Part shown: one piece after another, positions 1 to 46,108 of the stretch | Position numbering within the stretch: the stretch's first letter is position 1 | How the letters are laid out: each line of letters opens with the position of its first letter | Translations under genes and position numbers: made by a program | Notes under the pieces: generated by a model | Database searches by the model: none | Told to the model about the DNA's origin: nothing | What the model saw: the letters and a program-made list of their open reading frames with translations, nothing else | IMG/VR virus record: IMGVR_UViG_3300045988_154120 | Span: 1 to 46,108 of that record | From: a virus | Length of the DNA: 46,108 nucleotides | Direction: 5' to 3' (one strand)

Positions 1-55
1 ACTTTTCCAGCAACTGAGAAAACTTTTCTTTCTTCACATAATAAACATAATTCAC
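1..55. repeat. Terminal 55-bp overlap, identical to 46054..46108; shows the contig is circular with a 46,053-bp unit
   Basis: Base-by-base comparison of the first and last 55 nt gives an exact match. Confidence 0.95.
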
Positions 56-184
56 AGGCACATCTTCATCATCATGCGCATTGTATTCAAAAACTTTTTC
101 AACAAACTTAGAACAAATAACACCAATCTGTACATTATCATACTTTACAAAAACTTCTTTGTAAGAAAACTTATTTGTATCCAT
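1..184 (-). CDS. Hypothetical protein; N-terminal 61 codons of a 95-aa ORF that crosses the circular junction and continues 46053 down to 45950
   Basis: ATG at 184..182 with AGGAG 7 nt upstream. The frame stays open across position 1 into 46053 and ends at TAA 45952..45950. The ORF track misses it because it is split by linearisation. Confidence 0.5.
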   Translation of the reverse strand, partial: MDTNKFSYKEVFVKYDNVQIGVICSKFVEKVFEYNAHDDEDVPVNYVYYVKKEKFSQLLEK

Positions 185-206
185 TTCATCACTCCTAAAA
201 AACTTT

Positions 207-560
207 CTACACATCAACTAATGTTATCATAAACTTTTTATAATCTTCATCTGACTTTAGATAAATCTTATTGCAACCATTCATTACGTCTTCATAGTTT
301 AAGCAATCAATTTCATTATCTAAAAACTTTCTATATAAACTTTTGAATTGCGGTTCACAAATATAATGTTTAATAACGAGTATACCATTCTTATCATAAT
401 TACACCTATAAAACTTTTCATCTGCCATATAAACACATACAACACGATCTCCGTATTGTACAAATAAACTTTGTGTATTATTGATCATAAACAGCTTATT
501 AAGCTCCTCACCTATATTTATATGTTTTTCCCATAAAAACTTTGGTAATTTGTATTTCAT
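207..560 (-). CDS. Hypothetical protein (117 aa)
   Basis: Tracked ORF with AGGAG about 9 nt upstream, packed into the minus-strand early operon. Confidence 0.6.
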   Translation of the reverse strand: MKYKLPKFLWEKHINIGEELNKLFMINNTQSLFVQYGDRVVCVYMADEKFYRCNYDKNGILVIKHYICEPQFKSLYRKFLDNEIDCLNYEDVMNGCNKIYLKSDEDYKKFMITLVDV

Positions 561-609
561 TTTCTTTTCTCCTAAAAACTTTTATAAAAAACTTTTCATA
601 ATACCGTTC

Positions 610-885
610 CTATTTATCTGCAATCGTTTCTACATAACAATTATAATAAATATATCTTTTTCCATCATAGTCAAATTTTACATATCCACCATCCTTTGCT
701 TCAATATCAATTCTTCCCTCATAGCTTGCTAAAACTTTTCCATCTGCTGTATACACATTGATTATTCTATCCAATCCACCATTCAAATCAGATTTTACAT
801 CAGTACCAAAGCGATCCATAGATGCACATCCAAATAAGGAAACGCCAATCATTCCAACCATTAATAATTTGTATAATTTATTCAT
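610..885 (-). CDS. Putative lipoprotein (91 aa)
   Basis: Internal Met (MNKLYKLLMVGMIGVSLFGC...) with AGAGGA upstream. The signal peptide ends in the lipobox-like motif LFGC. Confidence 0.7.
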   Translation of the reverse strand: MNKLYKLLMVGMIGVSLFGCASMDRFGTDVKSDLNGGLDRIINVYTADGKVLASYEGRIDIEAKDGGYVKFDYDGKRYIYYNCYVETIADK

Positions 886-925
886 TTTATTCCTCTTTTC
901 TTTGACAATCCTATAAAGCACACAT

Positions 926-1090
926 TTATTCAAATTCAATATATCTTGTATCTTTCACTTTCCCACATTTCAAACACACAAGATACTGAGTCTCACCGCT
1001 GATACAATGAAACATCTCATTCTTTACACACCAAGTAAATTCATGCTTACAGAATAATCTTTTAAAAAACCATTTAATTTTGTTTATCAT
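926..1090 (-). CDS. Small Cys-rich (zinc-ribbon-like) protein, 54 aa
   Basis: Manual translation gives MINKIKWFFKRLFCKHEFTWCVKNEMFHCISGETQYLVCLKCGKVKDTRYIEFE. It is below the ORF-track cutoff and has only a weak SD. Confidence 0.4.
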   Translation of the reverse strand: MINKIKWFFKRLFCKHEFTWCVKNEMFHCISGETQYLVCLKCGKVKDTRYIEFE

Positions 1091-1235
1091 CTGAACTTCT
1101 TTCTATGTCCGATAACTATATAATTATCAGACTAACTACAAACCTTTTAAAAGCCTAGTAAATAGGCTACTTTGTAACACTTTTATAAAATAAAAACTTT
1201 ATGAAATTTTCAACCACGTTTTTATGCAATTAATC

Positions 1236-1523
1236 TCATCTTACTTCACCTGTTTCAATCATCTTTGCCGCTTGTAAAATTCCTGCCTTAACCCACTTAG
1301 ATTGATCATCATTATCAAAAACTCTTTTTGCGTTCTCTCTTAAACCTTTAACAATAGCATCAATCGAGACTTCTTTGTCTTTCTTTTCAAGAATGTATTC
1401 AATAGCATCATCGCATTTTCCAACCTTATTTGCCATAACAACAACATAGCCATCATCTAACGCTTTTTGCAATTCTTCAAAACTTTTCCCATCAAAAATG
1501 TATGATCTGATTACTTTCTGCAT
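1236..1523 (-). CDS. Hypothetical protein (95 aa)
   Basis: Tracked ORF in the early operon. Confidence 0.6.
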   Translation of the reverse strand: MQKVIRSYIFDGKSFEELQKALDDGYVVVMANKVGKCDDAIEYILEKKDKEVSIDAIVKGLRENAKRVFDNDDQSKWVKAGILQAAKMIETGEVR

Positions 1524-1560: not shown

Positions 1561-1791
1561 TTAATAACACCTGGGTATTGGAATTAAAGTAGTTATTCTT
1601 CCATTGTAGACAGGTATCAACGTAGTGCTGCAATGTGATGATGTATTAGACGATGTATTATTTGAACCATTAGAAGCAACAATCGCATATAACACACATA
1701 AAACAAATATAGTAATAATAAAACCAGATAATATCATTTCATCAATATGATCTCCAACCCATTCCCTTATTCTTTTTAATATCTCTATCAT
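1561..1791 (-). CDS. Small membrane protein (76 aa)
   Basis: Tracked ORF with one hydrophobic helix (ILSGFIITIFVLCVLYAIVA) and an ATGA start/stop overlap with the upstream gene. Confidence 0.5.
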   Translation of the reverse strand: MIEILKRIREWVGDHIDEMILSGFIITIFVLCVLYAIVASNGSNNTSSNTSSHCSTTLIPVYNGRITTLIPIPRCY

Positions 1792-2255
1792 TTGCTTAAA
1801 TCTCCCATAACGAGCTTTTTAAGCTCTTTTTTCATTGCGTAATACATTTTCATTCTGCTACAGTACTTTTCTCCTGAAAGCTTCTCAAACGACTCTCCAT
1901 CGATATAATGACGTTTCATATATAAACGAACATCATCATTTGGAATAAGATCAATAATTGTTTCAGCTTCTCTCATCTTTCCTAAGATAAGATTCTTGTC
2001 GTCTTCAAGCACTTTTTCTTTTGAAATAAACTTTACAAGAACATCATTTGTAATATCCATATTTTTCTTTGAATCCAACCTTTGTTCAAACGATGGAGAT
2101 TTTGGATCTGAAAATTCTTTTTTGCGAACCTCCAAATCCTTTAAAATTCCATCCAACGATTTAAACTTTCTTTCATAAATCTTGAACATTTCAAGTTTTT
2201 TAATCAGTGTATCCACCTGAACATCTACATATTCTTCATAATCCGTTTTACTCAT
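1788..2255 (-). CDS. Putative late-gene transcriptional activator (ArpU/DUF1492-like, with a sigma-70 region-4-like C-terminus)
   Basis: The C-terminus RLYMKRHYIDGESFEKLSGEKYCSRMKMYYAMKKELKKL fits the region-4 HTH pattern. It lies at the distal end of the early operon, as RinA/ArpU genes usually do. Confidence 0.45.
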   Translation of the reverse strand: MSKTDYEEYVDVQVDTLIKKLEMFKIYERKFKSLDGILKDLEVRKKEFSDPKSPSFEQRLDSKKNMDITNDVLVKFISKEKVLEDDKNLILGKMREAETIIDLIPNDDVRLYMKRHYIDGESFEKLSGEKYCSRMKMYYAMKKELKKLVMGDLSK

Positions 2256-8359: not shown

Positions 8360-9150
8360 CAGTTCAACCTGTAATTCTTTCCAGGCTCTTTCTCGATTTC
8401 AAAGAAGAAACCGTTGCATTTCTCAACAATGCGCCCAACTACCGCTTCATTTATATCGATCATTTCCTGACTTGTTCTTTCGCAGGATATGATCGTCTGC
8501 ATGTTGTTGTTATAGCGATAATCAATCAAATCAAAGATTGCTTTATCATCCAACCGATTGGCACTAGATTTGAACAAATCATCTAGATACAAGATTTGAG
8601 CGTGTTTAGCACGTTCTAGAAGCGAATAATCAAAGTTGCTAATAGAATTACTCAACTCAATGTATCTGACGTACAGAACGCGTTTATTTTGTTCGAGCAA
8701 CCAATTACTGATTCCTGAACATAGATGTGTTTTCCCACATCCACTCTGTCCTAAAAACATCAACCAATTACAAGGCATGTGTTCTGCAAAATTGTTTTTA
8801 CAATCCTGGATGTAATTCACTGCCATTTTCTTGATTGCTTCCTGCCAAGGATCAGATGCAACGAAATCATTGATTCTTTTATCCAACAAATCTTTTAAAC
8901 CGCTGTTCTTTTTGTTCTTCTCAATCCACTCACTGCGATAGCTTGACAGTTTCTCACAGTCATTTCTTTTTGAACAGAACACCTTTGTTGCAGCTACCAA
9001 GTATTTCCCGTCATAATACGCTGGCTTTTCCCAAATACCACAAGCGCCTGCTGCCATGCATTTGTCACAATCACTTTGGCAATGTTTGCTTTTAAGATAT
9101 TTCTTATTTTCTTCATTTTGTTTTTGGATTATTTCACTAACTGACTGCAT
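8359..9150 (-). CDS. DnaC/IstB-like AAA+ helicase loader with an N-terminal Cys cluster
   Basis: Walker A GQSGCGKTHL and Walker B ILYLDDL are present. It lies directly downstream of the replisome organizer. Confidence 0.75.
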   Translation of the reverse strand: MQSVSEIIQKQNEENKKYLKSKHCQSDCDKCMAAGACGIWEKPAYYDGKYLVAATKVFCSKRNDCEKLSSYRSEWIEKNKKNSGLKDLLDKRINDFVASDPWQEAIKKMAVNYIQDCKNNFAEHMPCNWLMFLGQSGCGKTHLCSGISNWLLEQNKRVLYVRYIELSNSISNFDYSLLERAKHAQILYLDDLFKSSANRLDDKAIFDLIDYRYNNNMQTIISCERTSQEMIDINEAVVGRIVEKCNGFFFEIEKEPGKNYRLN

Positions 9151-9950
9151 TACATCTTCATTCCTTTCGCGATCACAAAATTATTTGTTTTTTGTTTAGG
9201 TGCTACACTGTTCAGATAAATTTCAAACTTAGATCCAAACAACGTGTCAGGCCTTAGATACTTGTTCATCTCTGTATCGTTTAACCATTCATGCGCTTTC
9301 ACATCAATCACAAGCTTAAAGTCTTCTAATCTGAATCCCTCATTCCATCTAGCATGAATCTTATCTCTAGCAATTCGATTGCTATGTTTGTAATGCTTTG
9401 AACATTTAGAATTCAAGTAGTCAATAATTTCAACATAAGGGATTGTTTCTGATGCTGATAAATCAGTGTCGTCGGAACTTTCTTTTATATTTCTTTTATT
9501 AACTGTGTATATAAATGTTTTATTAACTGTCTTAGATTGGTCATTTTTGACCATTGTACATTGGTCATTTTTGACTATTCTACAATTGCCATTTTCGACC
9601 GTTCGATTAGTCACTTTTGACCAATCGATAGATAAAGCACTTTTTAACTTTTCTCCTACTTCTCCAAACGCATACCAAGTTGTATGATTCCATGGATTTT
9701 CGTTATAGTTTCCCTTAACTAACAAGTCCAGTTCAACCATTTTATTTAAGATTCTTTTTATCTTTTGAACATTCCAATAAGGGAACATTTTATGCAATCC
9801 TTCATATGTATTGAACGTCCAATATTTCCCGTCCTGGAAGTTGTAATTATTTGCTTCGTTCTTGCTGATCCAAAAACAAAACATATCGAACATGATAGCT
9901 ATTTCAACTCCATATTCATTTGCAATTTCCGCATCAAAACTATGTTTCAT
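9150..9950 (-). CDS. Phage replisome organizer (DnaD-like, with the conserved phage C-terminus)
   Basis: The C-terminal ...HARWNEGFRLEDFKLVIDVKAHEW......YLRPDTLFG.KFE.YLN pattern is present, together with internal 8-aa/24-bp repeats. Confidence 0.7.
   Translation of the reverse strand: MKHSFDAEIANEYGVEIAIMFDMFCFWISKNEANNYNFQDGKYWTFNTYEGLHKMFPYWNVQKIKRILNKMVELDLLVKGNYNENPWNHTTWYAFGEVGEKLKSALSIDWSKVTNRTVENGNCRIVKNDQCTMVKNDQSKTVNKTFIYTVNKRNIKESSDDTDLSASETIPYVEIIDYLNSKCSKHYKHSNRIARDKIHARWNEGFRLEDFKLVIDVKAHEWLNDTEMNKYLRPDTLFGSKFEIYLNSVAPKQKTNNFVIAKGMKM
9497..9624. repeat. Six repeats at roughly 24-bp phasing inside the organizer gene; candidate replication-origin iterons
   Basis: TTATTAACTGT occurs twice (about 9497 and 9521). 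TTGGTCATTTTTGAC(C/T)A occurs at 9537 and 9561, with degenerate copies at 9586 and 9608. Confidence 0.6.
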
Positions 9951-10824: not shown

Positions 10825-11724
10825 CTACTTCCTTTTCGCATAACTCAATGATTCAAGATTCTGCTTTTTCATTTTCCTTGTTGTACGAACATAGATTCTT
10901 GTAGTTTCTAAACTAGAATGGCCCAAAATGTCAGCTAGTTCTGCAATCGCATTTTCACCATTCTGCATCAAATACTGAATTGCAAACAAATGTCTAAATG
11001 CATGAGGATGTACTTTACCAAGCTTAATCCCTCTGCATTTACCAGCAATCATCTTTAAGTCTCTAGACAACACACGAGCGTTTACAGGACTTTTCTTATC
11101 AGAAGATGTAAATATACACCCTTCTTCAATTTTGTTGTCCTTGCAGTATTTAAGGAGCTCCCTTCGCAAGTCTGAACGTAGAATGATTCCTCTACCTTTT
11201 CCTTTGTTCATAACATAGATATTGTCATTCTTTACTGCTTCTACAGTAAAGAACTGTAATTCGCTCAGCCTAATTCCCGTATACCCAAACACCTTCATAA
11301 TCTCGTATAAGTCCATACGATTGATTTCACGGGCTTTTTTCAGTAGTCTTTGAAATTCATTAGGCTCTAGAATATCATCCAAAGAATCATCTTTCTGGAC
11401 TCTTACGTTCTTCAATAAATTCTTTGAATAATATTTCTTTAGCTTAAGAAAATTAAAATCATCATCTGAATCAATGATTTCCGCATATTTAATAAATTTA
11501 TTAATAATCACGATATAATTATTCACTGTACTGATTTTATAATCATGCAGCAGTTTATCTTTAACAGTAACTATATCGCTCTTTTTTATTTCACCATCAG
11601 GCAATGAGTTAACAAACAAAGTAGCAACATGCTTGTATTTACGAATGGTATTCTTACTTTTTTCATCCGCTGTTTCTTCTTCAATAAACCCGTCAATTTT
11701 TGTTTGTAACTCATCCTTAGTCAT
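10825..11724 (-). CDS. Second tyrosine recombinase (XerC/D-like, 299 aa)
   Basis: The catalytic set is visible: TGIRLSEL (Arg), HPHAFRHLFA (His-x-x-Arg) and GHSSLETTRIYV (His...Tyr). An N-terminal SAM-like domain is present. Confidence 0.85.
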   Translation of the reverse strand: MTKDELQTKIDGFIEEETADEKSKNTIRKYKHVATLFVNSLPDGEIKKSDIVTVKDKLLHDYKISTVNNYIVIINKFIKYAEIIDSDDDFNFLKLKKYYSKNLLKNVRVQKDDSLDDILEPNEFQRLLKKAREINRMDLYEIMKVFGYTGIRLSELQFFTVEAVKNDNIYVMNKGKGRGIILRSDLRRELLKYCKDNKIEEGCIFTSSDKKSPVNARVLSRDLKMIAGKCRGIKLGKVHPHAFRHLFAIQYLMQNGENAIAELADILGHSSLETTRIYVRTTRKMKKQNLESLSYAKRK

Positions 11725-14490: not shown

Positions 14491-14817
14491 TTAATCAAAG
14501 ATTGATTGTACTGCATCTAGTACTTCTTGAAGAATGTGTCGAGGGCATTCTTCTTTTTTTGTTACTTTTCGTGCTTTTAAATCAAGGGTTTTTACATGTT
14601 CACATAAAACACATCCTGTAGTTTTCATTTTGGGGTCTAAAGGAATATGCATAGGGAAATTTTTCGTATTATTTGTAATAGGGCAAATAATATACAATCC
14701 CATAATTCTATTATAATCATCATTCGATATGATCAAGCACGGTCTGTCACCTGCTTGTTCATGGCCTCTAACGGGGTCTAAATTTGTGAACACTATATCG
14801 CCTTGTTTGTAGTACAT
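14491..14817 (-). CDS. mazF: MazF/PemK-family endoribonuclease toxin
   Basis: GDIVFTNLDPVRGHEQAGDRPCLIIS...ICPIT is typical of PemK/MazF. Its ATG overlaps the stop of the antitoxin gene. Confidence 0.85.
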   Translation of the reverse strand: MYYKQGDIVFTNLDPVRGHEQAGDRPCLIISNDDYNRIMGLYIICPITNNTKNFPMHIPLDPKMKTTGCVLCEHVKTLDLKARKVTKKEECPRHILQEVLDAVQSIFD

Positions 14818-15068
14818 TAAAAAACCTCCTTACCGACTACTTCATCAGACCATATTTCTTCTTGCTGTGTTGGGCCTTCATAATTGGCAAAACGTTCGGC
14901 AATAGACATACGTCTTTTCTTGTTTGGTGTAAGTGTAATTGAATTGCTTTCTACTGTCATTTGTAATTCATCGCCCGTTTTGAGTGACAGAAGTTCCATA
15001 ACTGCCATAGGCAATCTTATCCCTTGACTGTTACCCCATTTTGTAATTTTTAAACTGCTGTTTGACAT
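14817..15068 (-). CDS. mazE: MazE/AbrB(SpoVT)-type antitoxin
   Basis: KWGNSQGIRLPMAVMELLSLKTGDEL is the swapped-hairpin AbrB/MazE motif. It lies upstream of mazF. Confidence 0.8.
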   Translation of the reverse strand: MSNSSLKITKWGNSQGIRLPMAVMELLSLKTGDELQMTVESNSITLTPNKKRRMSIAERFANYEGPTQQEEIWSDEVVGKEVF

Positions 15069-16636: not shown

Positions 16637-17734
16637 TCACAACAAGTTATTCATCATATCAACAATGCTCTTATCTTTTGTATCAAACCAGTGTGCATAT
16701 GTATTGTGCAATGTTTCAACTGTATCTCCTAAGCGTTTGGCTATGTCAAAATCTGAGAATCCAGCTCCTGCCATGTTATTAATTAGAAATGATGCATGTG
16801 AATGTCTAAAATCATGAATTCTTATTTTAGGCAATTCCTCATCTTTTTCTTTCGCCTTATTGTATGCATCATCAAATCTTCTTTGTACTGTCTGAGGTGA
16901 TATTGGTTTATAATATCCAAATACAAATTTATCTTTTGTGAAATCATCCCATTTAGAACATTCTAAAAACCATTCTCGAAGCATTTTAGACAAAGTATTA
17001 GGCATTGTGATAGTTCTATAGCTATTGTTTGTTTTTGGCGGTGTAAGCCATTTATCAGGGTCTTTCTCTTTGTATCTATATGTTTTGTTGATGTCTATAG
17101 TTTGTTTTCTAAAATCAATGTCCTTCCATTGTAGGGCCATTGCTTCACCTTTTCGTAATCCCATATAGAATAAAACAGAATAAAAGCATTTCATCATTTG
17201 TTCATCTACTTCTTCAATGAATAAATCAAAATCATATTGCTGCCATATTGTCATTTCTTCTTTTCTTTCATTCAATCTGAGATCACGTTTCACATATGTC
17301 ATTGGATTGGTTGGAATGTATTCAGAAGTAACGCCAAATTTATATAGCTTATTTAAAAAGAAATATATTCTTGATACATATGCCTTTGAATATTTATCAT
17401 CAAATTTGTTGATCAAGTTTTGCATTTGCCTTTTATCTAGAAAATCAATATCTTTCATTTCCTTAGAAAGAACATTGTACAAATATTCATCTGATTTTAG
17501 TGTTGATTCTTTTACATACTTTTTATTATATTCTTTAAAAGCTTTATATAATCTATCAAAATTCATGTCTGATGGAAGCATAAAGAAATCTTTTCTGAAT
17601 TCAACCTCAGCTTTTTGTGCTTCCCATTTAGAATCAAAACCACGCTTACGATATCTCTTTATACATTTGCCATCTTTATATATTTTCCCGGCAAACATAT
17701 ATTTTCCTGTCTTCTTATCTAATTCCACTGCCAT
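16637..17734 (-). CDS. int: Phage integrase (tyrosine recombinase, 365 aa)
   Basis: GLRKGEA (Arg), IHDFRHSHAS (His-x-x-Arg) and LHNTYAHW (Tyr) are present. It is adjacent to attP-like repeats. Confidence 0.9.
   Translation of the reverse strand: MAVELDKKTGKYMFAGKIYKDGKCIKRYRKRGFDSKWEAQKAEVEFRKDFFMLPSDMNFDRLYKAFKEYNKKYVKESTLKSDEYLYNVLSKEMKDIDFLDKRQMQNLINKFDDKYSKAYVSRIYFFLNKLYKFGVTSEYIPTNPMTYVKRDLRLNERKEEMTIWQQYDFDLFIEEVDEQMMKCFYSVLFYMGLRKGEAMALQWKDIDFRKQTIDINKTYRYKEKDPDKWLTPPKTNNSYRTITMPNTLSKMLREWFLECSKWDDFTKDKFVFGYYKPISPQTVQRRFDDAYNKAKEKDEELPKIRIHDFRHSHASFLINNMAGAGFSDFDIAKRLGDTVETLHNTYAHWFDTKDKSIVDMMNNLL
16641..16702. repeat. Copy of the 62-bp direct repeat that forms the int 3' end (partner at 15822..15883)
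   Basis: Same alignment as for 15822..15883. Confidence 0.85.
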
Positions 17735-17772: not shown

Positions 17773-17820
17773 GGGGTATAATTCAATATTTTAATATCAA
17801 ATTATACCCCAATATACCCC
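17773..17820. repeat. TATACCCC repeats, candidate integrase or Xis arm-type sites
   Basis: GGGGTATAAT (17773) and ATTATACCCC (17801) form a 10-bp inverted repeat, and a third direct copy TATACCCC lies at 17813. Confidence 0.55.
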
Positions 17821-17833
17821 AAAGCAAATAAAA

Positions 17834-17853
17834 AAGCCTTTATTTAAAGGCTT
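17834..17853 (-). terminator. Minus-strand terminator ending the lysis operon
   Basis: AAGCCTTT-ATTT-AAAGGCTT with a T-run on the minus strand. Confidence 0.55.
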
Positions 17854-17862
17854 AAATTTCAA

Positions 17863-17881
17863 TGGAGCAGATGAGGGGATT
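17863..17881 (-). other. Candidate attP core that mimics a tRNA 3' end
   Basis: The minus strand reads AATCCCCTCATCTGCTCCA, which parses as end of T-loop (AAT), T-stem 3' arm (CCCCT), acceptor 3' arm (CATCTGC), discriminator U and CCA. No full tRNA is present. Confidence 0.45.
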
Positions 17882-18050
17882 ATATAAATACTTCATATCT
17901 ATTGATATTTGATGTTATTTACATCATTATCTACGTGTTTTGATAACACTTTGTTGTTTTGTACCCCAAAATGTACCTCACTGCTTCACGCAAGAAAGAT
18001 AATACAGTATAAACTATATTATGTCAAACAATTTTTTATATTTTTTTATT

Positions 18051-41119: not shown

Positions 41120-41520
41120 TCATCATCCTCCCTTCCACATCCTATAAGCATTCCGTTTTCATCAAACTCAAAAGATGGTTTACGTTTGGAATGTTCTTCT
41201 GCATGACATAAGTCACACAACGCTTCCAAATTAGAATCGCCAAATAGAATGTGTACATCTCTATAGTTGTCCTGGTCAATGTGCACTTTGTGGTGCACGC
41301 AAGTCGACCTGGTATAGATACCTTTTTTCAAACATCTTTCACAAAGTGGATGTGCCTTTCTATACGCTTTGCTTTTCTTTTCCCAAGCCTTGCTTGAGTA
41401 AAATTTTCTAGCATAATTTCTAGCACCTGTTTTTGTTGCTTCTGAACCATAATATTTTTTCATATCGCTACATTCAAAGTTTTGACCATAACTACAGTTA
41501 ACAGATTTAAAGGACGACAA
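41077..41520 (-). CDS. HNH endonuclease (tracked TTG start at 41520; the ATG at 41463 is more likely)
   Basis: CERC...CVHHKVHID...N...LCDLCHAEEH is an HNH motif. It lies next to the terminase genes, as in HNH-assisted cos packaging. Confidence 0.85.
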   Translation of the reverse strand: MSSFKSVNCSYGQNFECSDMKKYYGSEATKTGARNYARKFYSSKAWEKKSKAYRKAHPLCERCLKKGIYTRSTCVHHKVHIDQDNYRDVHILFGDSNLEALCDLCHAEEHSKRKPSFEFDENGMLIGCGREDDECKKEHGKKESIHN

Positions 41521-41700: not shown

Positions 41701-42121
41701 GAAGAAATTCAGATTTTACCCCCTTGTCGCACACCCGTGACCCAGTTTTTTTGAACTCCCCACGCCGTTCCCCAAAGTGCAAAAAACTTTTTGAAAGATA
41801 GGGGCGGTCTATGCTGATCTGACCCATGCTATGGCGCTTTCAGGGTTAAAAATCAAACCTATGCAGCTATCACAACGCCGCCACGTTCACGGCTTCAGTC
41901 ATATGACATTTATATATTTGTTATTGTGTTGAAAGATGTTTCAACATGCATTGTTGAAAGCGTTGTTTCATAACATGGCCATGACTACATTAATAGAACA
42001 CACGCGCACGTTCTTATATATGCAATAAGTCTTGCATCACTCCAATATATTGGATTATATATATCAACTCCATACACTCCAACACGTCCATTGTCTTCCT
42101 GGAACTGAAGCAAACCCCCAC

Positions 42122-42146
42122 AAAAAAAAGGACGTTCACAACGTCC
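42122..42146 (-). terminator. Strong minus-strand intrinsic terminator
   Basis: GGACGTT-GTG-AACGTCC followed by T8 when read on the minus strand. Confidence 0.7.
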
Positions 42147-42316
42147 ATACATGTATATATTACTAGTCTGTTAACTATATGTTATAAGACTAGAACCGAA
42201 CACGCTTAAAAGCCTTTTAAATAGGCACTTGCGTGCATGTTTGAAAAGATAAAAGCTTTTTGAAAAAATGAGCACTAAAAAAAATAAGTTTAGGAGGTGT
42301 AAACATAGAAGAAAAA

Positions 42317-42340
42317 AGACACGCTCAATTTTGCGTGTCT
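42317..42340 (-). terminator. Hairpin at the XRE gene stop
   Basis: AGACACGC-N8-GCGTGTCT with a T-run on the minus strand. Confidence 0.5.
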
Positions 42341-42581
42341 AGTCTTTGTTTTCTTGTATATCATTTATATTTAATTCAATTATTTTTTCTTTTGTTGTCT
42401 TGTCAATTATATTTATTTCCAAGCCCATCCAATCGCATAACTTTATAAACTCACCTAAATTCATTCTATCGTTTGAAATCGTGTTACTTAATGATTGACG
42501 CGTACGGTTTATATGTTTTGCGTATTCTATTTGTGTTTTGTTTCGCATCGTGAACAACGCTTTTATTTTCTCTTTTAACAT
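42339..42581 (-). CDS. XRE-family HTH regulator (80 aa from the internal Met)
   Basis: MLKEKIKALFTMRNKTQIEYAKHINRTRQSLSNTISNDRMNL is an HTH. The N-terminal 57 codons of the tracked ORF cover the promoter region and are probably not translated. Confidence 0.7.
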   Translation of the reverse strand: MLKEKIKALFTMRNKTQIEYAKHINRTRQSLSNTISNDRMNLGEFIKLCDWMGLEINIIDKTTKEKIIELNINDIQENKD

Positions 42582-42623
42582 TTTTTGCCGTCCTTTCTTT
42601 ATGTGTATATTATCATATTTACT

Positions 42624-42708
42624 TTGTAAATTCAAACTACAACGTTGTAAATAAAAAATATTACATTCTATTATTGACAATGTAATATTTATGATGTACA
42701 TTGTAAAT
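42624..42708. promoter_or_regulatory. Divergent control region: three TTGTAAAT boxes, plus TTGACA-N17-TACATT driving the plus-strand operon
   Basis: TTGTAAAT occurs at 42624, 42645 and 42701. The -35 is at 42674..42679 and the -10 at 42697..42702. Confidence 0.5.
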
Positions 42709-42745
42709 GTCTTAAGAGACAAGCCACACGAAAGGAGGTGCAAAC

Positions 42746-42913
42746 GTGGCAAAGTATAAACGTAGCAAACCGATGAAACGTCGCGATAGAAAAAAGCGCG
42801 AAAAAAAAGAGCGCATGATTTCGTACCTATCCAAAACGTTCGAAATTATATACACGCTCTTAATCGGTGAAGCCCTCAAGCTTCTTGCTAAATATCTAAG
42901 TGACTTATTTTAG
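42746..42913 (+). CDS. 55-aa protein with a very basic N-terminus and amphipathic C-terminus (GTG start, missed by the ORF track)
   Basis: AGGAGG lies 6 nt upstream. Manual translation gives (M)AKYKRSKPMKRRDRKKREKKERMISYLSKTFEIIYTLLIGEALKLLAKYLSDLF. A hairpin follows at 42896..42922. Confidence 0.5.
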   Translation: MAKYKRSKPMKRRDRKKREKKERMISYLSKTFEIIYTLLIGEALKLLAKYLSDLF

Positions 42914-43040
42914 TCACTTAGGTACTTATATTATACCACGTTTTAAAATATGGAACTACTAAAAATAGCGTTATTACTATCGTTAGCATTTAATGCATAT
43001 CTTTTAAAAAAAATAATTGAAAAGTAAGGAGGTAAAGATT

Positions 43041-43541
43041 ATGTGTGAAATGAAAGCTTATATTACAAATTTAGGAAAATATAACGAGGGTGAATTGGTT
43101 GGAAAGTGGATCAGTTTCCCAATCGATGAGGACGATTTTCAAGATAAACTTGAAAGCATTGGAGTGAAAGAAAACACAATGTATGAAGAGTGGTTTATAA
43201 CTGATTATTATTGTTCATTGTTCGATATGTATGATGCATTCGGTGAATATCCAAGTATTGACGATATTAACGAAGTGGCTGAAGCATTAGAAGATAATGA
43301 AAGTGTATTCACTGCTTTATTGGAAGTATGCAGCTATGAGGACGCTTTAAAATACTTAAAAAGTGAAAATTATACTTTTTATCAGGGTATGACGTTGGAA
43401 GATGTAGCGCATGAATTAATTGAAGAATGTTACAACCTCCCAGAAATTGCACAAAAATATTTTGACTATGAAGCGTTTGCGTGTGATCTTGAGTATGATG
43501 GATATACTGAAACTTCAAACGGAGTTATTTGTTTATGGTAA
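43041..43541 (+). CDS. ardA: ArdA anti-restriction protein
   Basis: YITNLGKYNEGELVGKWISFPIDEDDF... closely parallels Tn916 Orf18/ArdA (YIANLGKYNEGELVG.WF.FPID). AGGAGG precedes the ATG at 43041. Confidence 0.9.
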   Translation: MCEMKAYITNLGKYNEGELVGKWISFPIDEDDFQDKLESIGVKENTMYEEWFITDYYCSLFDMYDAFGEYPSIDDINEVAEALEDNESVFTALLEVCSYEDALKYLKSENYTFYQGMTLEDVAHELIEECYNLPEIAQKYFDYEAFACDLEYDGYTETSNGVICLW

Positions 43542-43684
43542 CCCGCAAAGATCTTGACAAGATGAGCGCCTTCAAGGTGCTCATACTTGCATTTTTAAAA
43601 TTATATTTAGCAGCGTGCACATCTACATTGATCATGGGTATAATATTGGGCCTTTTAAATATCATACTCCCATTTATTTATTAA
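43535..43684 (+). CDS. Possible 49-aa membrane peptide
   Basis: Manual translation gives MVTRKDLDKMSAFKVLILAFLKLYLAACTSTLIMGIILGLLNIILPFIY. Its ATG overlaps the end of ardA. Confidence 0.35.
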   Translation: MVTRKDLDKMSAFKVLILAFLKLYLAACTSTLIMGIILGLLNIILPFIY

Positions 43685-43701
43685 TTGCAGGAGGTTAAAC
43701 A

Positions 43702-43974
43702 ATGGAACTTTTAGAAATTAAATTATTGCATAAATATGCAAGAATAAGATCATATATGAATGATCTTATTTCTGGTAATTTTGTTATATATGATTTTCTT
43801 TATGAATGTCTTGCGGATCATATTAAATCATTTATTTATGATCTTGCTTATATCGAAAATGAAAAAGTTATACGCGTTTATTATGATCAACTTTTAGTTG
43901 ATTCTAAACAAGTAAGCAAAGAACTTTATACACTTGTTATAACTATTTTTGAAGATAATGAATGGAGGTTTTAA
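43702..43974 (+). CDS. Hypothetical protein (90 aa)
   Basis: Tracked ORF with an AGGAGG SD. Confidence 0.55.
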   Translation: MELLEIKLLHKYARIRSYMNDLISGNFVIYDFLYECLADHIKSFIYDLAYIENEKVIRVYYDQLLVDSKQVSKELYTLVITIFEDNEWRF

Positions 43975-43976
43975 AA

Positions 43977-44207
43977 ATGAATAATAAAGAATATATTGAG
44001 TTTACAGAAAAAAAACTAGATCGACTAAATGGATCTAGCTGCAAGCCTTACACAATTACAAAACATTTAAACGGTTTATATGATCTTAACTATGGTTTAG
44101 ATACCATTGCTTGGATGCTTGAACCGCGCGAGCTTTGGCTACTTGTAAACACATTATATACATTGGATATTTTAGGAGGGCTAAAAAATGACAATGTGGA
44201 AGCGTGA
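43977..44207 (+). CDS. Hypothetical protein (76 aa from the internal Met)
   Basis: A GGAGG SD lies 8 nt upstream of the ATG at 43977. Confidence 0.55.
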   Translation: MNNKEYIEFTEKKLDRLNGSSCKPYTITKHLNGLYDLNYGLDTIAWMLEPRELWLLVNTLYTLDILGGLKNDNVEA

Positions 44208-44778
44208 ACGAAACCATTTTAATTATTATGTTACAAACGAAAGAAAACAACCACACATTTACGTTGAAGCGTTAGGAACTCCAAGCGCTTCAACTGAAAA
44301 AGTTTTAAAAGATCATGGTTTTAAATTTGATCATAATAAATGTATGTATGCAGCAGCTCAAACAAATGACTTGAGGTTGTTCGTGGCGCATGATCTTGAC
44401 AAGCTTTTCAACTATGATATTCAAATATATTTCAATACTGAAGCTAAAAAAGAACTTTTCGCGCCTGATATCCAAGAAATAAAAGATATCTGTTATTATT
44501 TCAAAATTTATAAATGCTATGTTGATATTTTAAATAAGGATCTTTTTAAGATCTGTAAGCCTGGATCAAAAAGCTTGCTAGCAACTTATAATACCAGCTT
44601 TAAAACTATAGATGTTTTTAATAGAAACAAGCTTATAGAAAGCTATGTGTATAATAATGGTAAAATCGAGAAAATGATCGTAGAAAAAGCTGCACCAAAA
44701 AAGAAGAAAGCAGCAACTACAGAAACAGAACAACAAAAAATCAATAAAATGTTAGAAGAGTTTGAGTTTCCATTTTAG
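44188..44778 (+). CDS. Hypothetical protein (196 aa)
   Basis: Tracked ORF with a GGAGGG SD. Confidence 0.6.
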   Translation: MTMWKRERNHFNYYVTNERKQPHIYVEALGTPSASTEKVLKDHGFKFDHNKCMYAAAQTNDLRLFVAHDLDKLFNYDIQIYFNTEAKKELFAPDIQEIKDICYYFKIYKCYVDILNKDLFKICKPGSKSLLATYNTSFKTIDVFNRNKLIESYVYNNGKIEKMIVEKAAPKKKKAATTETEQQKINKMLEEFEFPF

Positions 44779-44791
44779 GGGGTAAAAATAT

Positions 44792-45349
44792 ATGGGATAT
44801 ATTGGAAATAAAATGAGCGTGCGCGCTTATGAAGCTTATGAAAGTGGTGAAAAGCCACTTTCAAAATGGACTAAAAACGATATTATAGAATGCGTTTTAA
44901 ATGTTAGAAATGACTTTCAAGAAAAAGAATTAAAAATTTATAGCAAAGAAGTTTTAAAAGCTTTTCTAATCTGTAGCTCTTGGCATCATACGGGATCATA
45001 TTTCAATGAAACTAATTTCTATAGTTTAGATCTTGATTTTATTGAACTATCAAAAATTGAAATAATCCAGGTACTTGAAAAGAAGAAAAAAGATCTTGAA
45101 AAAGAGAAAGAAGAAAAAAAGATTTTAAAACTTCAAAAATGCAAATTTAAATATATTGAATGGGCCGGAACTCGAAAACATCCAAAAGCAATAGAAAAAG
45201 AATCATACGGCATCATAAAAGGATCATGGATATACTACAAAGACGGCAAAAAGTCATTAAATGGTAAATATGTTCATGTGGTTGAAATGCTTGAACGTGC
45301 ACCGCGCGGAACTGCTGCACTATTTAAACAAATTGAAAAGGACTTGTGA
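44792..45349 (+). CDS. Hypothetical protein (185 aa)
   Basis: Tracked ORF with a GGGGG SD. The N-terminus reads MSVRAYEAYESGEKPLSKWTK. Confidence 0.6.
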   Translation: MGYIGNKMSVRAYEAYESGEKPLSKWTKNDIIECVLNVRNDFQEKELKIYSKEVLKAFLICSSWHHTGSYFNETNFYSLDLDFIELSKIEIIQVLEKKKKDLEKEKEEKKILKLQKCKFKYIEWAGTRKHPKAIEKESYGIIKGSWIYYKDGKKSLNGKYVHVVEMLERAPRGTAALFKQIEKDL

Positions 45350-45363
45350 AAGTCCTTTTTTTA
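45337..45363. terminator. Bidirectional terminator at the convergence of the plus-strand island and the minus-strand early operon
   Basis: AAAGGACTT-GTGA-AAGTCCTTT followed by T-runs. Confidence 0.7.
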
Positions 45364-45912
45364 ATGTCTTCTCATTTCTTTTTGAATCAGCTTTTTTTTG
45401 ACTGGATTCGATGCGAAAAAGTTCATGAAAAGTTTTGTTTTAAACTCGTATTCTTTTTGATCCATTTCTTTTATATCCAAAACTCTTTTAAATATCACTA
45501 TCGCAATAAAGTTTGCAAACAAGTTTGCATCTTTTTCTATTTCCTGATTCTCATAGTGTTTGCTGCTTGAATCCTTATAACTTTCAAGTTCATTTTTCCA
45601 TATAGAAACGCTTCTTTCATCCATAGAAAATACTTTTTGATTCTTCTTATATACACATGCATATTGATATAAATGTCTAATTTCATGAGCTAGATATATA
45701 TAAACTAGACTTCTATCTTTGCATAAATCCAAGTTCACACAAATTACATTTTCTTTAGGGTATGATGTACATATGCTGGTATCTTTCACTTGAAAAAGTT
45801 CTTTATTGATTGGCTTATTTTTAAGATCATAAAACTTTTCATTTTCTTTAAAGTAAACTTTTGGAATCTTTATATTTAATAGTGTGCATAGAAAACTTAC
45901 ATAATCATTCAT
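45361..45912 (-). CDS. Putative zinc metallopeptidase-like protein with an HExxHxxQ motif
   Basis: YIYLAHEIRHLYQY carries the motif; the protein is 183 aa. Confidence 0.5.
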   Translation of the reverse strand: MNDYVSFLCTLLNIKIPKVYFKENEKFYDLKNKPINKELFQVKDTSICTSYPKENVICVNLDLCKDRSLVYIYLAHEIRHLYQYACVYKKNQKVFSMDERSVSIWKNELESYKDSSSKHYENQEIEKDANLFANFIAIVIFKRVLDIKEMDQKEYEFKTKLFMNFFASNPVKKKLIQKEMRRH

Positions 45913-45949
45913 GCATCCATTATATCTGAAAAACTTTATTTTGAAAAAC

Positions 45950-46053
45950 TTATTTATCTAGGATCAAAAAAACTTTTTCAAGTTGTTCTTGAGACGTTGG
46001 AAAAAACTTTTGAGATTCTTTTTCATACTTGCATAGAATCGAACCGTCAAAAA
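45950..46053 (-). CDS. C-terminal 34 codons plus stop of the junction-spanning 95-aa ORF (see 1..184)
   Basis: The frame runs continuously from position 1 to the stop TAA at 45952..45950. Confidence 0.5.
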
Positions 46054-46108
46054 ACTTTTCCAGCAACTGAGAAAACTTTTCTTTCTTCACATAATAAACA
46101 TAATTCAC
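46054..46108. repeat. Terminal overlap, a duplicate of 1..55
   Basis: Exact identity. Confidence 0.95.

What the first reader, a model, noticed from the sequence alone, without database searches (positions are those of the whole stretch)
1..745. Dense, strand-oriented array of AAAACTTT(T) motifs spanning the circular junction (part 1)
The plus-strand motif (A)AAAACTTT(T) occurs at about 19, 89, 197, 231, 322, 338, 410, 535, 574, 586 and 731, with variants at 149 and 166 and further copies at 1192 and 1479. All are in the same orientation. From composition I estimate that roughly one such 9-mer would be expected in the whole genome, and I saw only about 3 copies in the other ~44 kb (7689, 41781 and one inverted at 44296).

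On the coding (minus) strand the motif AAAAGTTTT falls in all three reading frames: AAG-TTT gives KF, AAA-GTT-TTT gives KVF and AAA-AGT-TT gives KS. It also sits in three consecutive intergenic spacers, twice as AAAGTTTTT(T)AGGAG directly fused to the SD. That argues for selection on the nucleotide motif rather than on a protein repeat.

Candidate roles are a binding array for a phage or host DNA-binding protein (a partition, silencing or second-origin site), bent A/T-tract DNA, or an RNA-level signal in the distal early transcript.
Basis: seen in the sequence. Interest (0 to 1): 0.7.

Follow-up and report, generated by a model that had tools for sequence, protein, structure and literature searches.

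The report
Oriented AAAGTTTT array overlaid on phage genes
A family of human-gut prophages keeps about two dozen same-strand copies of the short DNA word AAAGTTTT packed into about 1.5 kb of small genes just downstream of its late-gene activator, and selection acts on the DNA word itself, so it is a real hidden signal whose most likely reader is that activator.

Summary
The window is a circular 46,053-bp assembly. On the + strand, 16 of 18 AAAACTTT copies lie in 45831→wrap→1486. On the coding (−) strand, the core AAGTTT occurs 24 times in 1.5 kb (0.66 expected) and its complement never.

Synonymous-codon shuffles do not reproduce this (11 observed, 3.8±1.6 expected). Lys-Phe is coded AAG-TTT 11 of 12 times here and 8 of 44 elsewhere. 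Six copies fill intergenic spacers.

More than 90 related loci keep the array and its orientation. Motif columns vary 3–5 times less than the neighbouring columns.

The array is not the replication origin, because classical iterons lie inside the rep gene. It is not phased bent DNA. The small host sample showed no excess of the motif, which weakens a Chi reading.

The array begins just downstream of a DUF1492 (LtrB-family) late-activator gene. The motif also heads two paralogous cassettes (repeat, hairpin, promoter). One precedes the array operon and the other precedes cos-HNH-terS, which matches the known Ltr layout.

My best reading (about 0.33) is that these are extra Ltr recognition repeats forming a capture or titration hub. 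An RNA-level signal remains a close rival. I rate it a new variant of a known kind.

The parts
1..1486 (-). Array, part after the circular junction. The sense-strand motif is aAAAGTTTTt (AAAACTTT on the + strand). The dense core is 1-738, with outliers at 1193 and 1479.
   Evidence: Searches give positions and enrichment. One search gives the codon shuffles.
45831..46108 (-). Array, part before the junction. It has five 8-mers plus 6-mer variants at 45855, 45893 and 45946. Positions 46054-46108 duplicate 1-55.
1788..2255 (-). F3, a 155-aa DUF1492 / LtrB-family late transcriptional activator candidate. It is the proposed reader of the motif.
   Evidence: Pfam DUF1492 matches at E=5.5e-4, 20.5 bits against a cut-off of 21.5. 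phrog_36 'transcriptional regulator' also matches. PF07374 is precomputed for the 97%- and 92%-identical cluster representatives. The structure model is a helical hairpin plus a C-terminal three-helix unit, pLDDT 81. The gene is present in all 50 related loci that carry an array.
1085..1215 (-). Cassette A. It contains AAAGTTTTT-N8-AAAGTGTT-N2-AAAGT, then the hairpin AGCCTATTTACTAGGCT followed by TTTT, then a -35/-10-like pair (TTTAAA-17-GATAAT) inside the palindrome GTCTGATAA..TTATCGGAC. It precedes the array operon.
   Evidence: (conserved next to at least 5 different upstream and 3 downstream contexts)
42150..42285 (-). Cassette B, a paralogue of cassette A. It contains AAAAAGCTTTT, the hairpin GCCTATTTAAAAGGC followed by TTTT, and the palindrome AGTCTTATAACATATAGTTAACAGAC. 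It lies upstream of cos, HNH and terS.
   Evidence: (alignment A1)
207..560 (-). F2, a 117-aa gene of unknown function. It carries 6 AAGTTT copies and evolves fast, but its motif columns are conserved.
45950..46108 (-). F1, a 95-aa gene of unknown function that runs 184→1 and 46053→45950 across the junction. It carries 8 AAGTTT copies.
1..184 (-). 5' part of the F1 gene (see the previous entry).
610..885 (-). F4, a lipoprotein (lipobox LFGC; phrog_2316 / weak DUF5052 match). It carries 1 motif copy.
926..1090 (-). F24, a 54-aa zinc-finger protein and the first gene after cassette A. It carries no motif and is absent from many relatives.
45361..45912 (-). F5, a 183-aa HExxH protein (weak DUF6782 match). 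It carries 3 motif copies, all in its first 100 nt.
45336..45359 (.). Bidirectional terminator hairpin where the array operon and the + strand ArdA block converge.
41783..41794 (-). Isolated perfect AAAAAGTTTTTT, about 15 bp inside the putative right genome end. It is conserved in relatives.
41757..41767 (.). Putative cohesive-end segment CGGCGTGGGGA (cosN). It is bracketed by the ends of two independent related contigs and flanked by inverted A/T arms.
   Evidence: contig ends at 41768 and 41756; inverted repeat I5. This is an inference.
41476..41483 (+). Inverted motif copy (AAAGTTTT on the + strand), about 275 bp inside the putative left end and just upstream of HNH. It is conserved in relatives.

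Best explanation
The array is a cis-acting nucleotide signal written over coding sequence. It is not a protein repeat. I propose that AAAGTTT(T) is the recognition repeat of the phage's own late transcriptional activator, the DUF1492/LtrB-family protein encoded at 1788-2255, just upstream of the array.

In known Ltr systems (RinA, ArpU, LtrC; an LtrB member also activates its terS promoter), the activator binds two to four direct 7-nt repeats just distal to its gene. A terminator and the activator-dependent terS promoter follow.

This phage has that layout twice. Cassette A lies before the array operon. Cassette B lies before cos-HNH-terS.

The roughly 24 additional co-oriented copies spread through the next 1.5 kb would form a high-avidity landing pad for the activator. 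The structure model predicts a long helical hairpin suited to oligomerisation plus a C-terminal helical DNA-binding unit.

The inferred consequence is one of two things. The array may hold a local pool of activator, or it may titrate the activator so that the late promoters fire only above a threshold.

Shown: the array exists, it is on one strand, it is under nucleotide-level purifying selection, it always co-occurs with the ltr gene, and the two cassettes share their architecture.

Inferred: that the Ltr protein is what reads the motif, and what the extra copies achieve.
For: Selection on the nucleotide word. Synonymous shuffles fail to reproduce the count. Lys-Phe is coded AAG-TTT 11 of 12 times in the array genes and 8 of 44 times elsewhere; across relatives the figure is 277 of 281 in F1 and F2. 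Motif columns are 3-5 times less diverse than other columns in F2, with permutation p=0.004; in F1 p=0.06.

Turnover. Single sites are gained and lost, but each F2 homologue keeps 4-8 copies and each F1 homologue keeps 5-9.

Position relative to the ltr gene. In 48 relatives the 2.9 kb downstream of the ltr gene holds 12.8 sense 8-mers (range 6-17) and 0.5 antisense. The 2.9 kb upstream holds 0.23. The ltr gene is present in every locus that carries an array. This includes the most diverged relative, with a 77%-identical Ltr whose C-terminal segment (SRMKMYYAMKKELKKL) is unchanged, and which has 22 AAGTTT copies.

Cassettes. The motif heads a conserved cassette of about 95 nt (repeats, hairpin plus T-run, promoter-like pair). 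The cassette stays intact next to at least five different upstream contexts. It has a paralogue upstream of cos-HNH-terS.

Known biology. Ltr proteins, including a DUF1492 member, activate terS promoters. RinA, LtrC and ArpU need direct 7-nt repeats distal to their gene (PMC3753634). The same layout is directly visible in phage 80alpha: TGGCAGT twice, immediately after the rinA stop codon, then a hairpin, then terS.

Other local candidates drop out. The zinc-finger protein, the HTH gene at 42339-42752, MazEF and F5 are each missing from some relatives that carry the array.
Against: Nothing shows binding. The DUF1492 match of the window protein is just under Pfam's cut-off (20.5 against 21.5 bits). 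NCBIfam, PDB sequence search and Foldseek add nothing.

No diverged Ltr homologue with a different repeat could be found, so covariation could not be tested.

A pure decoy function does not explain why all 24 copies face the same way.

Cassette B carries AAAAAGCTTTT, with C where the array has T, in 19 of 20 variants. The second and third 'repeats' of cassette A are degenerate.

One or two small genes separate the ltr gene from cassette A, so the repeats are not strictly 'immediately distal'.

The copies show no -10 element at a fixed distance, so they are not individual promoters.
Confidence: 0.33

Rival explanations
1. The signal is read in the mRNA. AAAGUUUU is a lone G in an A/U context, repeated about 24 times in one transcript. 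It could be an entry or cleavage site for an endoribonuclease such as RNase Y (a preference for cutting after G in A/U-rich single strands, from my own knowledge). It could instead be the site of an RNA-binding protein, which would make the transcript a sponge or a translational operator. Copies abutting the Shine-Dalgarno sequences would process or gate the cistrons, and internal copies would set a short half-life.
For: An RNA reading explains the strict sense orientation without further assumptions: 24 copies to 0 in the window and 153 to 7 unique contexts across relatives. In every variant of the F2 and F1 spacers the motif sits directly 5' of the SD, as AAAGTTT(T..)(A)AGGAG, although the upstream contexts differ. 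All copies lie in transcribed DNA, including the copy before the cassette A hairpin and the copy in the late leader.
Against: No reader can be named. The phage's own MazF-like nuclease is absent from relatives that carry the array. The motif is neither avoided nor enriched in the rest of the sense strand, where AAG-TTT use matches the codon frequencies. Adjacency to the SD is nearly forced, because the spacers are only about 22-50 nt. The idea does not explain why the array starts at the ltr gene or why the motif heads two promoter cassettes. Rfam finds nothing.
Confidence: 0.25
2. The array is an orientation-dependent transcription barrier or speed bump. One version resembles stoperators: a repressor or other DNA-binding protein (not Ltr) sits on asymmetric sites and blocks or slows RNA polymerase moving one way. 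Another version is a non-template-strand element read by the elongation complex, like ops sites or the NusG TTNTTT pause motif. Either would keep the F2-F1-F5 genes silent or slow until the right time.
For: All copies are co-oriented with transcription, and they occur both between and within genes. About a third of the sites carry six or more T and so contain TTNTTT. The genes under the array are small accessory genes next to an anti-restriction block.
Against: Stoperators are about 13 bp, mostly intergenic and spread over the whole genome. Here all copies sit in one 1.5-2.3 kb stretch and about three quarters are intragenic. No repressor co-varies with the array: the HTH gene at 42339-42752 is missing from L169 and L172. 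Most sites lack a full TTNTTT.
Confidence: 0.1
3. The array is a directional DNA-transaction signal tied to the genome ends. It could be a Chi-like anti-exonuclease array that stops AddAB/RecBCD entering from the right cos end. It could be a pause for DNA entry or for the packaging motor. It lies 4.1-5.8 kb inside the right end, directly behind the ArdA block that would enter the cell first.
For: The putative cos lies at 41757-41767. The array, the perfect copy 15 bp inside the right end, and the inverted copy 275 bp inside the left end all present 5'-AAAGTTTT-3' on the 3'-ended strand to an enzyme entering from the nearer end (geometry inferred). ArdA is the first gene inside the right end. 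No recombinase or Gam-like gene was seen among the annotated genes.
Against: Two independent host flanks of 8.7 kb each show 0-2 AAAGTTTT and no AAAACTTT, which is about chance. AAGTTT (3-7) and AAACTT (4-6) are balanced. Known Chi sequences are G/C-rich (my knowledge). The motif is not enriched in the other 44 kb of the phage. The orientation had a 50% prior. The end-proximal copies were noticed post hoc, and the right-end copy belongs to an inverted repeat that flanks cos.
Confidence: 0.07
4. The array has no function of its own. It could be a residue of history (internal duplications in F1 and F2) or microhomology that promotes cassette shuffling in a mosaic region. Alternatively, a Lys-Phe-rich protein motif happens to be coded one way.
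For: F1 has a paralogue that shares the NKF, EKF and KVF positions. The region is highly mosaic. Conserved blocks start near motif copies.
Against: Flanks of the copies share nothing beyond about 10 nt. The copies lie in three frames and in six intergenic positions. Synonymous choice is 98.6% AAG-TTT in F1 and F2. Motif columns are more conserved than the rest of a fast-evolving gene. The paralogue has lost the 8-mers at the same Lys-Val-Phe site, using GTG for valine. The complement never occurs in the array.
Confidence: 0.05
5. The array is a second replication origin or a partition (centromere-like) site made of short iterons.
For: It consists of direct repeats in an A/T-rich stretch. Origins built from octamer iterons exist (P4 ori/crr, my knowledge).
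Against: A classical origin signature lies inside the initiator gene: three 22-nt and two 21-nt direct repeats at 9486-9623. No second initiator and no ParA, ParB or ParR was seen. The element integrates beside tRNA-Asp. Spacing is irregular (13-143 bp) and the copies lie inside genes.
Confidence: 0.03

Closest known systems
Ltr (RinA / ArpU / LtrA / LtrB=DUF1492 / LtrC) late activators of Gram-positive phages and their direct 7-nt repeats (Quiles-Puchalt et al. 2013, PMC3753634)
   Same: A DUF1492-type gene lies at the end of the early region. Short direct repeats lie distal to it. A hairpin terminator and a weak -35 promoter follow. A copy of this layout lies upstream of the packaging genes. 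The most enriched words are 7-mers, AAGTTTT and AAAGTTT.
   Different: Known systems have 2-4 repeats in one intergenic block of about 59 nt next to terS. Here about 24 copies spread over 1.5-2.3 kb, and three quarters of them are inside coding sequence. The ltr gene is 6.5 kb from terS, and the cassette is duplicated. Binding was not tested.
Stoperators of mycobacteriophage L5 and cluster A phages (repressor gp71; my knowledge)
   Same: Both have many copies of an asymmetric site, all oriented with the direction of transcription, lying between and within genes.
   Different: Stoperators are 13 bp, number about 24-30, are spread over the whole 52-kb genome, are mostly intergenic, and are read by the immunity repressor. 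Here the sites are 8-10 bp and all lie in one short stretch. No repressor is linked to them.
Titration or decoy arrays: P1 incA iterons for RepA, and E. coli datA for DnaA (my knowledge)
   Same: Each is a cluster of extra binding sites near the gene of the protein it binds, and each acts through site number rather than position.
   Different: Those arrays control replication initiators, lie outside coding sequence, and have longer sites (9-19 bp). Here the suspected protein is a transcription activator and the sites overlap genes.
Chi sites and Chi clusters that protect linear or rolling-circle DNA from RecBCD/AddAB (my knowledge)
   Same: Both are short, strand-specific and active in one orientation. 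The orientation here fits entry from the free right cos end.
   Different: The host flanks show no excess. The sequence is unlike the known G/C-rich Chi sequences. The motif is confined to one patch.
RNA-level multi-site elements: T4 RegB GGAG cleavage sites at early Shine-Dalgarno sequences, and CsrB-type sponge RNAs (my knowledge)
   Same: Both have a short motif repeated in one transcript, often at ribosome-binding sites.
   Different: No nuclease or RNA-binding protein can be assigned here. Most copies are inside open reading frames.

Membership tests
Ltr activator / direct-repeat late-promoter system | An Ltr-superfamily gene (RinA, ArpU, sigma70_r4, DUF1492 or LtrC) lies at the end of the early region | tested here: inconclusive
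   Pfam DUF1492 matches at E=5.5e-4, 20.5 bits against a cut-off of 21.5. PF07374 is precomputed for the 97%- and 92%-identical proteins. phrog_36 matches. NCBIfam, PDB and Foldseek give nothing.
Ltr activator / direct-repeat late-promoter system | Short (about 7 nt) direct repeats lie distal to the ltr gene, followed by a terminator and a promoter | tested here: met
   Cassette A at 1085-1215 has three AAAGT repeats, the hairpin AGCCTATTTACTAGGCT followed by TTTT, and TTTAAA-17-GATAAT. It is conserved in relatives. However, 1-2 small genes lie between the ltr gene and the cassette.
Ltr activator / direct-repeat late-promoter system | Only 2-4 repeats, confined to one intergenic block next to terS | tested here: not met
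   There are 24 AAGTTT copies in 1.5 kb, about 18 of them intragenic. The ltr gene is 6.5 kb from terS.
Ltr activator / direct-repeat late-promoter system | The same element controls the terS / morphogenesis operon | tested here: inconclusive
   The paralogous cassette B lies upstream of cos-HNH-terS, but its first repeat reads AAAAAGCTTTT. Promoter activity cannot be tested here.
Ltr activator / direct-repeat late-promoter system | The activator binds the repeats and activation depends on them | not testable with these tools
   This needs EMSA, ChIP or reporter assays.
Stoperators (L5-type) | Asymmetric sites are co-oriented with transcription | tested here: met
   The window has 24 sense and 0 antisense copies. 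Across relatives there are 153 sense and 7 antisense unique contexts in forward genes.
Stoperators (L5-type) | Sites are dispersed over the whole genome and mostly intergenic | tested here: not met
   On the array (+) strand, 16 of 18 8-mers lie within 1.7 kb, and most are intragenic.
Chi | The orientation is active for an exonuclease entering from the free DNA end | tested here: met
   The geometry follows from the putative cos at 41757-41767. The cos position itself is inferred.
Chi | Over-represented and strand-skewed in the host chromosome | tested here: not met
   Each 8.7-kb host flank has 0-2 copies, which is about chance, and AAGTTT and AAACTT are balanced. Only about 17 kb of independent host DNA was available, so this is a weak test.
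Iteron replication origin | Iterons lie at or within the initiator gene, or a dedicated initiator lies next to the array | tested here: not met
   Classical 21-22-nt iterons lie inside the rep gene at 9486-9623, 8-9 kb from the array. No initiator lies near the array.
Partition centromere (parS / parC) | Adjacent parA/parB or parM/parR genes and an extrachromosomal lifestyle | tested here: not met
   No par-type hit was seen among the local or genome-wide annotated genes. The prophages are integrated beside tRNA-Asp.
Phased A-tract intrinsically bent DNA | A/T tracts repeat in phase with the helix (about 10.5 bp) | tested here: not met
   The Rayleigh R is 0.365 at 10.5 bp. The best period over a scan of 8-40 bp gives R=0.52, which is inside the range for random positions (mean 0.48, 95th percentile 0.58).

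The most novel reading that the evidence does not exclude
The array is a directional barrier placed directly behind the first DNA to enter the cell. If the right cos end enters first, it brings in about 3.6 kb that carries the ArdA anti-restriction block. The array of about 24 one-way sites then pauses further genome entry, or halts an end-entering exonuclease, until the anti-defence proteins are made. This would be a T5-like two-step entry or a Chi-like shield in a temperate gut siphovirus, encoded as an overlapping code inside genes.
Probability: 0.07. Interest if true: 0.85.

Novelty: new variant of a known kind. Interest (0 to 1): 0.6.

Why it matters
This is a clear case of a second code laid over protein-coding sequence. 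Selection for a short DNA word has reshaped both the codon choice and the amino-acid content (a Lys-Phe excess) of two genes across a whole family of human-gut Erysipelotrichaceae prophages.

Such a hub could time late gene expression by titration. That is testable with one protein and a few reporters.

There is also a practical point. Gene callers and protein-family methods would not see this element, and it biases the protein sequences they report.

Tried and rejected
- Megablast of 25 kb against GenBank phages found no match. The best cultured TerL relative is 48% identical.
- A full-text search for the motif string returned only primers and unrelated hits.
- A scan of viral contigs for three spaced AAAGTTTT copies found many hits. 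Every irregular array belongs to this phage family; the other hits are regular tandem repeats in unrelated viruses.
- A genome-collection scan with F2 found nothing.
- F1 and F3 homologues are all close (at least 60% and 77% identical), and tblastn of F3 against phage records found nothing. An Ltr/repeat covariation test was therefore impossible.
- The F1 structure model has pLDDT 68 and no PDB fold match. The F3 model has pLDDT 81, but Foldseek hits are dominated by coiled coils.
- No -10 element lies at a fixed distance from the copies, so they are not individual promoters.
- There is no helical or codon periodicity.
- There is no Rfam family and no tRNA in the window.
- The zinc-finger protein F24, the HTH gene at 42339-42752 and F5 are rejected as readers for the same reason.
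- Look-ups of the endolysin and the integrase to reach host DNA failed, because the contigs end at att. The holin look-up succeeded.
- In the reverse-strand ArdA block the motif shows no orientation bias (17 sense, 13 antisense), so that block could not separate a transcription-linked reading from a genome-axis-linked one.
Full report
WHAT IS THERE

The window is a circular assembly. Its last 55 bases repeat its first 55, so the true length is 46,053 bp.

On the + strand AAAACTTT occurs 18 times in the non-redundant circle. Sixteen of these lie between 45831 and 1486 across the junction, a span of 1.7 kb. A simple binomial estimate puts the chance of that clustering near 1e-21 (my calculation). 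Only two further + strand copies exist (7689 and 41783), along with three inverted ones (41476, 44299, 45429).

Nearly all genes here run on the − strand, so the coding-strand motif is AAAGTTTT. An alignment of 26 sites gives the consensus aAAAGTTTTt and no longer conserved flank.

In the 1.5-kb core the 6-mer AAGTTT occurs 24 times, against 0.66 expected from the rest of the genome. The 8-mer occurs 15 times against 0.08 expected. The complement AAACTT never occurs in the core, whereas elsewhere the two orientations are balanced at 19 and 23.

IS IT MORE THAN CODING?

Yes. Shuffling synonymous codons within each of the eight local genes gives 3.8±1.6 8-mers (maximum 8) against 11 observed, and 9.6±2.2 6-mers against 21 observed. 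Shuffling codon order gives 0.5. Both the amino-acid sequence and the codon choice are therefore bent toward the motif.

The 21 coding copies fall 12, 5 and 4 in the three frames, coding KF, K/E-V-F and x-S-F/L.

Lys-Phe is written AAG-TTT 11 of 12 times in the array genes. Elsewhere it is written that way 8 of 44 times, which matches the genome's AAG and TTT frequencies. Six more copies fill intergenic spacers.

CONSERVATION

A protein scan with the 117-aa gene (F2) found 35 related viral contigs. A scan with the upstream regulator (F3) found 50. Exact-protein look-ups added human-gut metagenome contigs, among them a 1.74-Mb bacterial contig. In all, 93 of the 236 loci fetched carry an irregular array.

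In 48 relatives the 2.9 kb downstream of F3 holds 12.8 sense 8-mers (range 6-17) and 0.5 antisense. The 2.9 kb upstream holds 0.23.

In codon alignments, motif columns are far less diverse than other columns. In F2 the diversity at codon positions 1, 2 and 3 is 0.026, 0.017 and 0.053 in motif columns, against 0.141, 0.077 and 0.153 elsewhere. A same-frame permutation test gives p=0.004. F1 shows the same trend with p=0.06.

F2 itself evolves quickly, with position-1 diversity close to position-3 diversity, so the motifs are its most conserved feature. Individual sites come and go, but each F2 homologue keeps 4-8 copies and each F1 homologue keeps 5-9.

A paralogue of F1 present in some relatives keeps the AAG-TTT codon pairs but has lost the 8-mers. 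For example, Lys-Val-Phe is written AAAGTGTTT there.

A scan of viral contigs for three spaced copies of the 8-mer found irregular arrays only in this family. The other hits are regular tandem repeats.

GENOME CONTEXT

This is a temperate siphovirus with cohesive ends.
- Packaging and structure: HNH endonuclease, P27-type small terminase, large terminase, portal, protease and capsid at 41.5-35.8k, followed by tail and lysis genes.
- Integration and immunity: an integrase at 16637-17734, a CI-like repressor and a MazEF module.
- Replication: a DnaD/Phg_2220_C initiator and a DnaC-like loader.
- Accessory: a + strand block that starts with ArdA at 43017.

Relatives are integrated beside a tRNA-Asp gene, next to radC-mreC-polA. 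The host is probably an Erysipelotrichaceae member. A 'Solobacterium sp.' MAG carries a 99%-identical TerL, and the more distant integrase homologues that carry a source name mostly come from Erysipelotrichaceae.

The ends of two independent related contigs bracket CGGCGTGGGGA at 41757-41767, which is flanked by inverted A/T arms. I take this to be cos (inference).

THE LEAD

The array begins just downstream of a 155-aa gene (1788-2255) that matches DUF1492. The match is borderline for the window protein, and the Pfam domain is precomputed for proteins 97% and 92% identical to it. It also matches phrog_36, 'transcriptional regulator'.

DUF1492 is the LtrB family of the Ltr superfamily of late activators. 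The members studied bind two to four direct 7-nt repeats located just distal to their gene. These repeats lie ahead of a terminator and the activator-dependent terS promoter, and an LtrB member activates its terS promoter (PMC3753634). I checked the layout in phage 80alpha: TGGCAGT occurs twice, immediately after the rinA stop codon, then a hairpin with a T-run, then terS.

This phage has the same layout. After the small ltr operon comes a block of about 95 nt:
- AAAGTTTTT-N8-AAAGTGTT-N2-AAAGT;
- the hairpin AGCCTATTTACTAGGCT followed by TTTT;
- a weak promoter-like pair inside a palindrome.

The block is nearly invariant in relatives, although the DNA on either side of it differs.

A paralogous cassette lies upstream of cos-HNH-terS. 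Its first element reads AAAAAGCTTTT. A perfect AAAAAGTTTTTT lies 469 bp further on, about 15 bp inside the putative right end.

The F3 structure model (pLDDT 81) shows a long helical hairpin and a C-terminal three-helix unit. That is compatible with an oligomeric DNA binder, but Foldseek could not confirm the fold.

The other local candidate readers are each missing from some relatives that carry the array. These are the zinc-finger protein, the HTH gene at 42339-42752, MazEF and the HExxH protein.

BEST EXPLANATION AND ITS LIMITS

I propose that AAAGTTT(T) is the Ltr recognition repeat. The roughly 24 additional co-oriented copies would form a multi-site hub that captures or titrates the activator.

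This reading fits the position of the array, the direct-repeat nature of the copies, the cassettes and the universal co-occurrence with F3.

It does not by itself explain why every intragenic copy must face the same way. Binding is untested. Cassette B carries a C variant of the motif. No diverged Ltr homologue exists that would allow a covariation test. I put this reading at about one third.

RIVALS

RNA-level reading (about one quarter). This explains the orientation at once, and it explains the copies that abut the SD in every spacer variant. However, it has no named reader. It also does not explain the link to the ltr gene or to the promoter cassettes.

Polymerase barrier, stoperator-like or ops/NusG-like. 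This fits the orientation but not the confinement to one patch.

End-linked directional reading (Chi-like shield or entry pause behind the first-entering ArdA block). This fits the geometry, including the two copies near the genome ends. However, the 17 kb of host DNA I could reach shows no excess of the motif.

Second origin. This is disfavoured by classical iterons inside the rep gene at 9486-9623.

Partition. This is disfavoured because the element integrates into the chromosome and no par genes were seen.

Bent DNA. This is disfavoured because the copies are not phased with the helix.

Purely historical or protein-level origin. This is contradicted.

VERDICT

The feature is real, strongly non-random, conserved and under nucleotide-level selection. 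It is not a described element.

I file it as a new variant of a known kind: Ltr-type direct repeats expanded into an intragenic array. Membership is not proven, because the defining feature 'few repeats in one intergenic block' is not met and binding is untested.

Noticed in passing
window 1-55 and 46054-46108: The last 55 bases repeat the first 55 exactly. This is an assembly overlap of a circular or circularly joined contig, so the true length is 46,053 bp and one motif copy (19 = 46072) is counted twice in the raw window.
   Followed up: yes
window 9486-9623 (inside the rep initiator gene 9150-9950): There are three 22-nt direct repeats, each holding the palindrome TGGTCA-TTTT-TGACCA, and two 21-nt direct repeats, at 24-nt spacing. 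This is a classical phage origin inside the initiator gene.
   Followed up: partly
window 43017-45349 (+ strand): A block of genes is transcribed against the rest of the genome. It starts with an ArdA anti-restriction gene and ends at a bidirectional terminator (45336-45359). ArdA is the first gene inside the putative right cos end, so it would be the first to enter the cell if that end leads.
   Followed up: partly
window 41747-41797: The putative cos is the G/C-rich core GGGGAACGGCGTGGGG flanked by inverted A/T arms. The ends of two independent related contigs fall at 41768 and 41756, which suggests an 11-nt cohesive end, CGGCGTGGGGA.
   Followed up: partly
window 42130-42146 (- strand): A strong hairpin with a T8 run (GGACGTTGTGAACGTCC TTTTTTTT) lies downstream of the cassette B promoter-like region and upstream of cos/HNH. 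It may be a leader terminator in the late operon, which would call for antitermination.
   Followed up: no
window 1123-1150 and 42166-42191 (- strand): The two cassettes share the palindrome AGTCTnATAAnATATAGTTAnCnGAC, which overlaps the -10-like hexamer. It looks like an operator for a dimeric regulator separate from the AAAGTTTT motif.
   Followed up: no
window 14491-15068 (- strand): A MazE/PemK-MazF toxin-antitoxin pair lies between the integrase and the repressor. It is present in some relatives and absent from others.
   Followed up: partly
window 10825-11724 and 16637-17734 (- strand): There are two tyrosine recombinase genes. The 365-aa one lies next to attP. A second, 299-aa XerC/D-like one lies just upstream of the replication genes and is conserved in relatives.
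   Followed up: no
window about 17800-17900; L231 11395-11700: The attP core carries the 3' end of a tRNA-like sequence (AATCCCCTCATCTGCTCCA). In host contigs the prophage lies beside tRNA-Asp, followed by DUF1848, radC, mreC, polA, fpg, coaE and dnaB. One relative (L232) sits at a different host site.
   Followed up: partly
L233 and L234 (one 109-kb contig): Two related prophages lie in tandem on one host contig. The endolysin of one is followed directly by the integrase of the next.
   Followed up: no
L224 11443-12132; L002 5683-5982 and others: F2 and F1 are fused into one 229-aa ORF in the most diverged relative. Many relatives carry a second, diverged F1 paralogue between F1 and F5. Some relatives have an upstream in-frame ATG that extends F1 across the spacer (MCRKFFRSDE...).
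   Followed up: partly
L227 7252-7485 and the same position in L229-L231: A 77-aa Sigma70_r4_2 protein is encoded among the tail/lysis genes of some relatives but not others. It is another small sigma-region-4-like regulator in this phage family.
   Followed up: no
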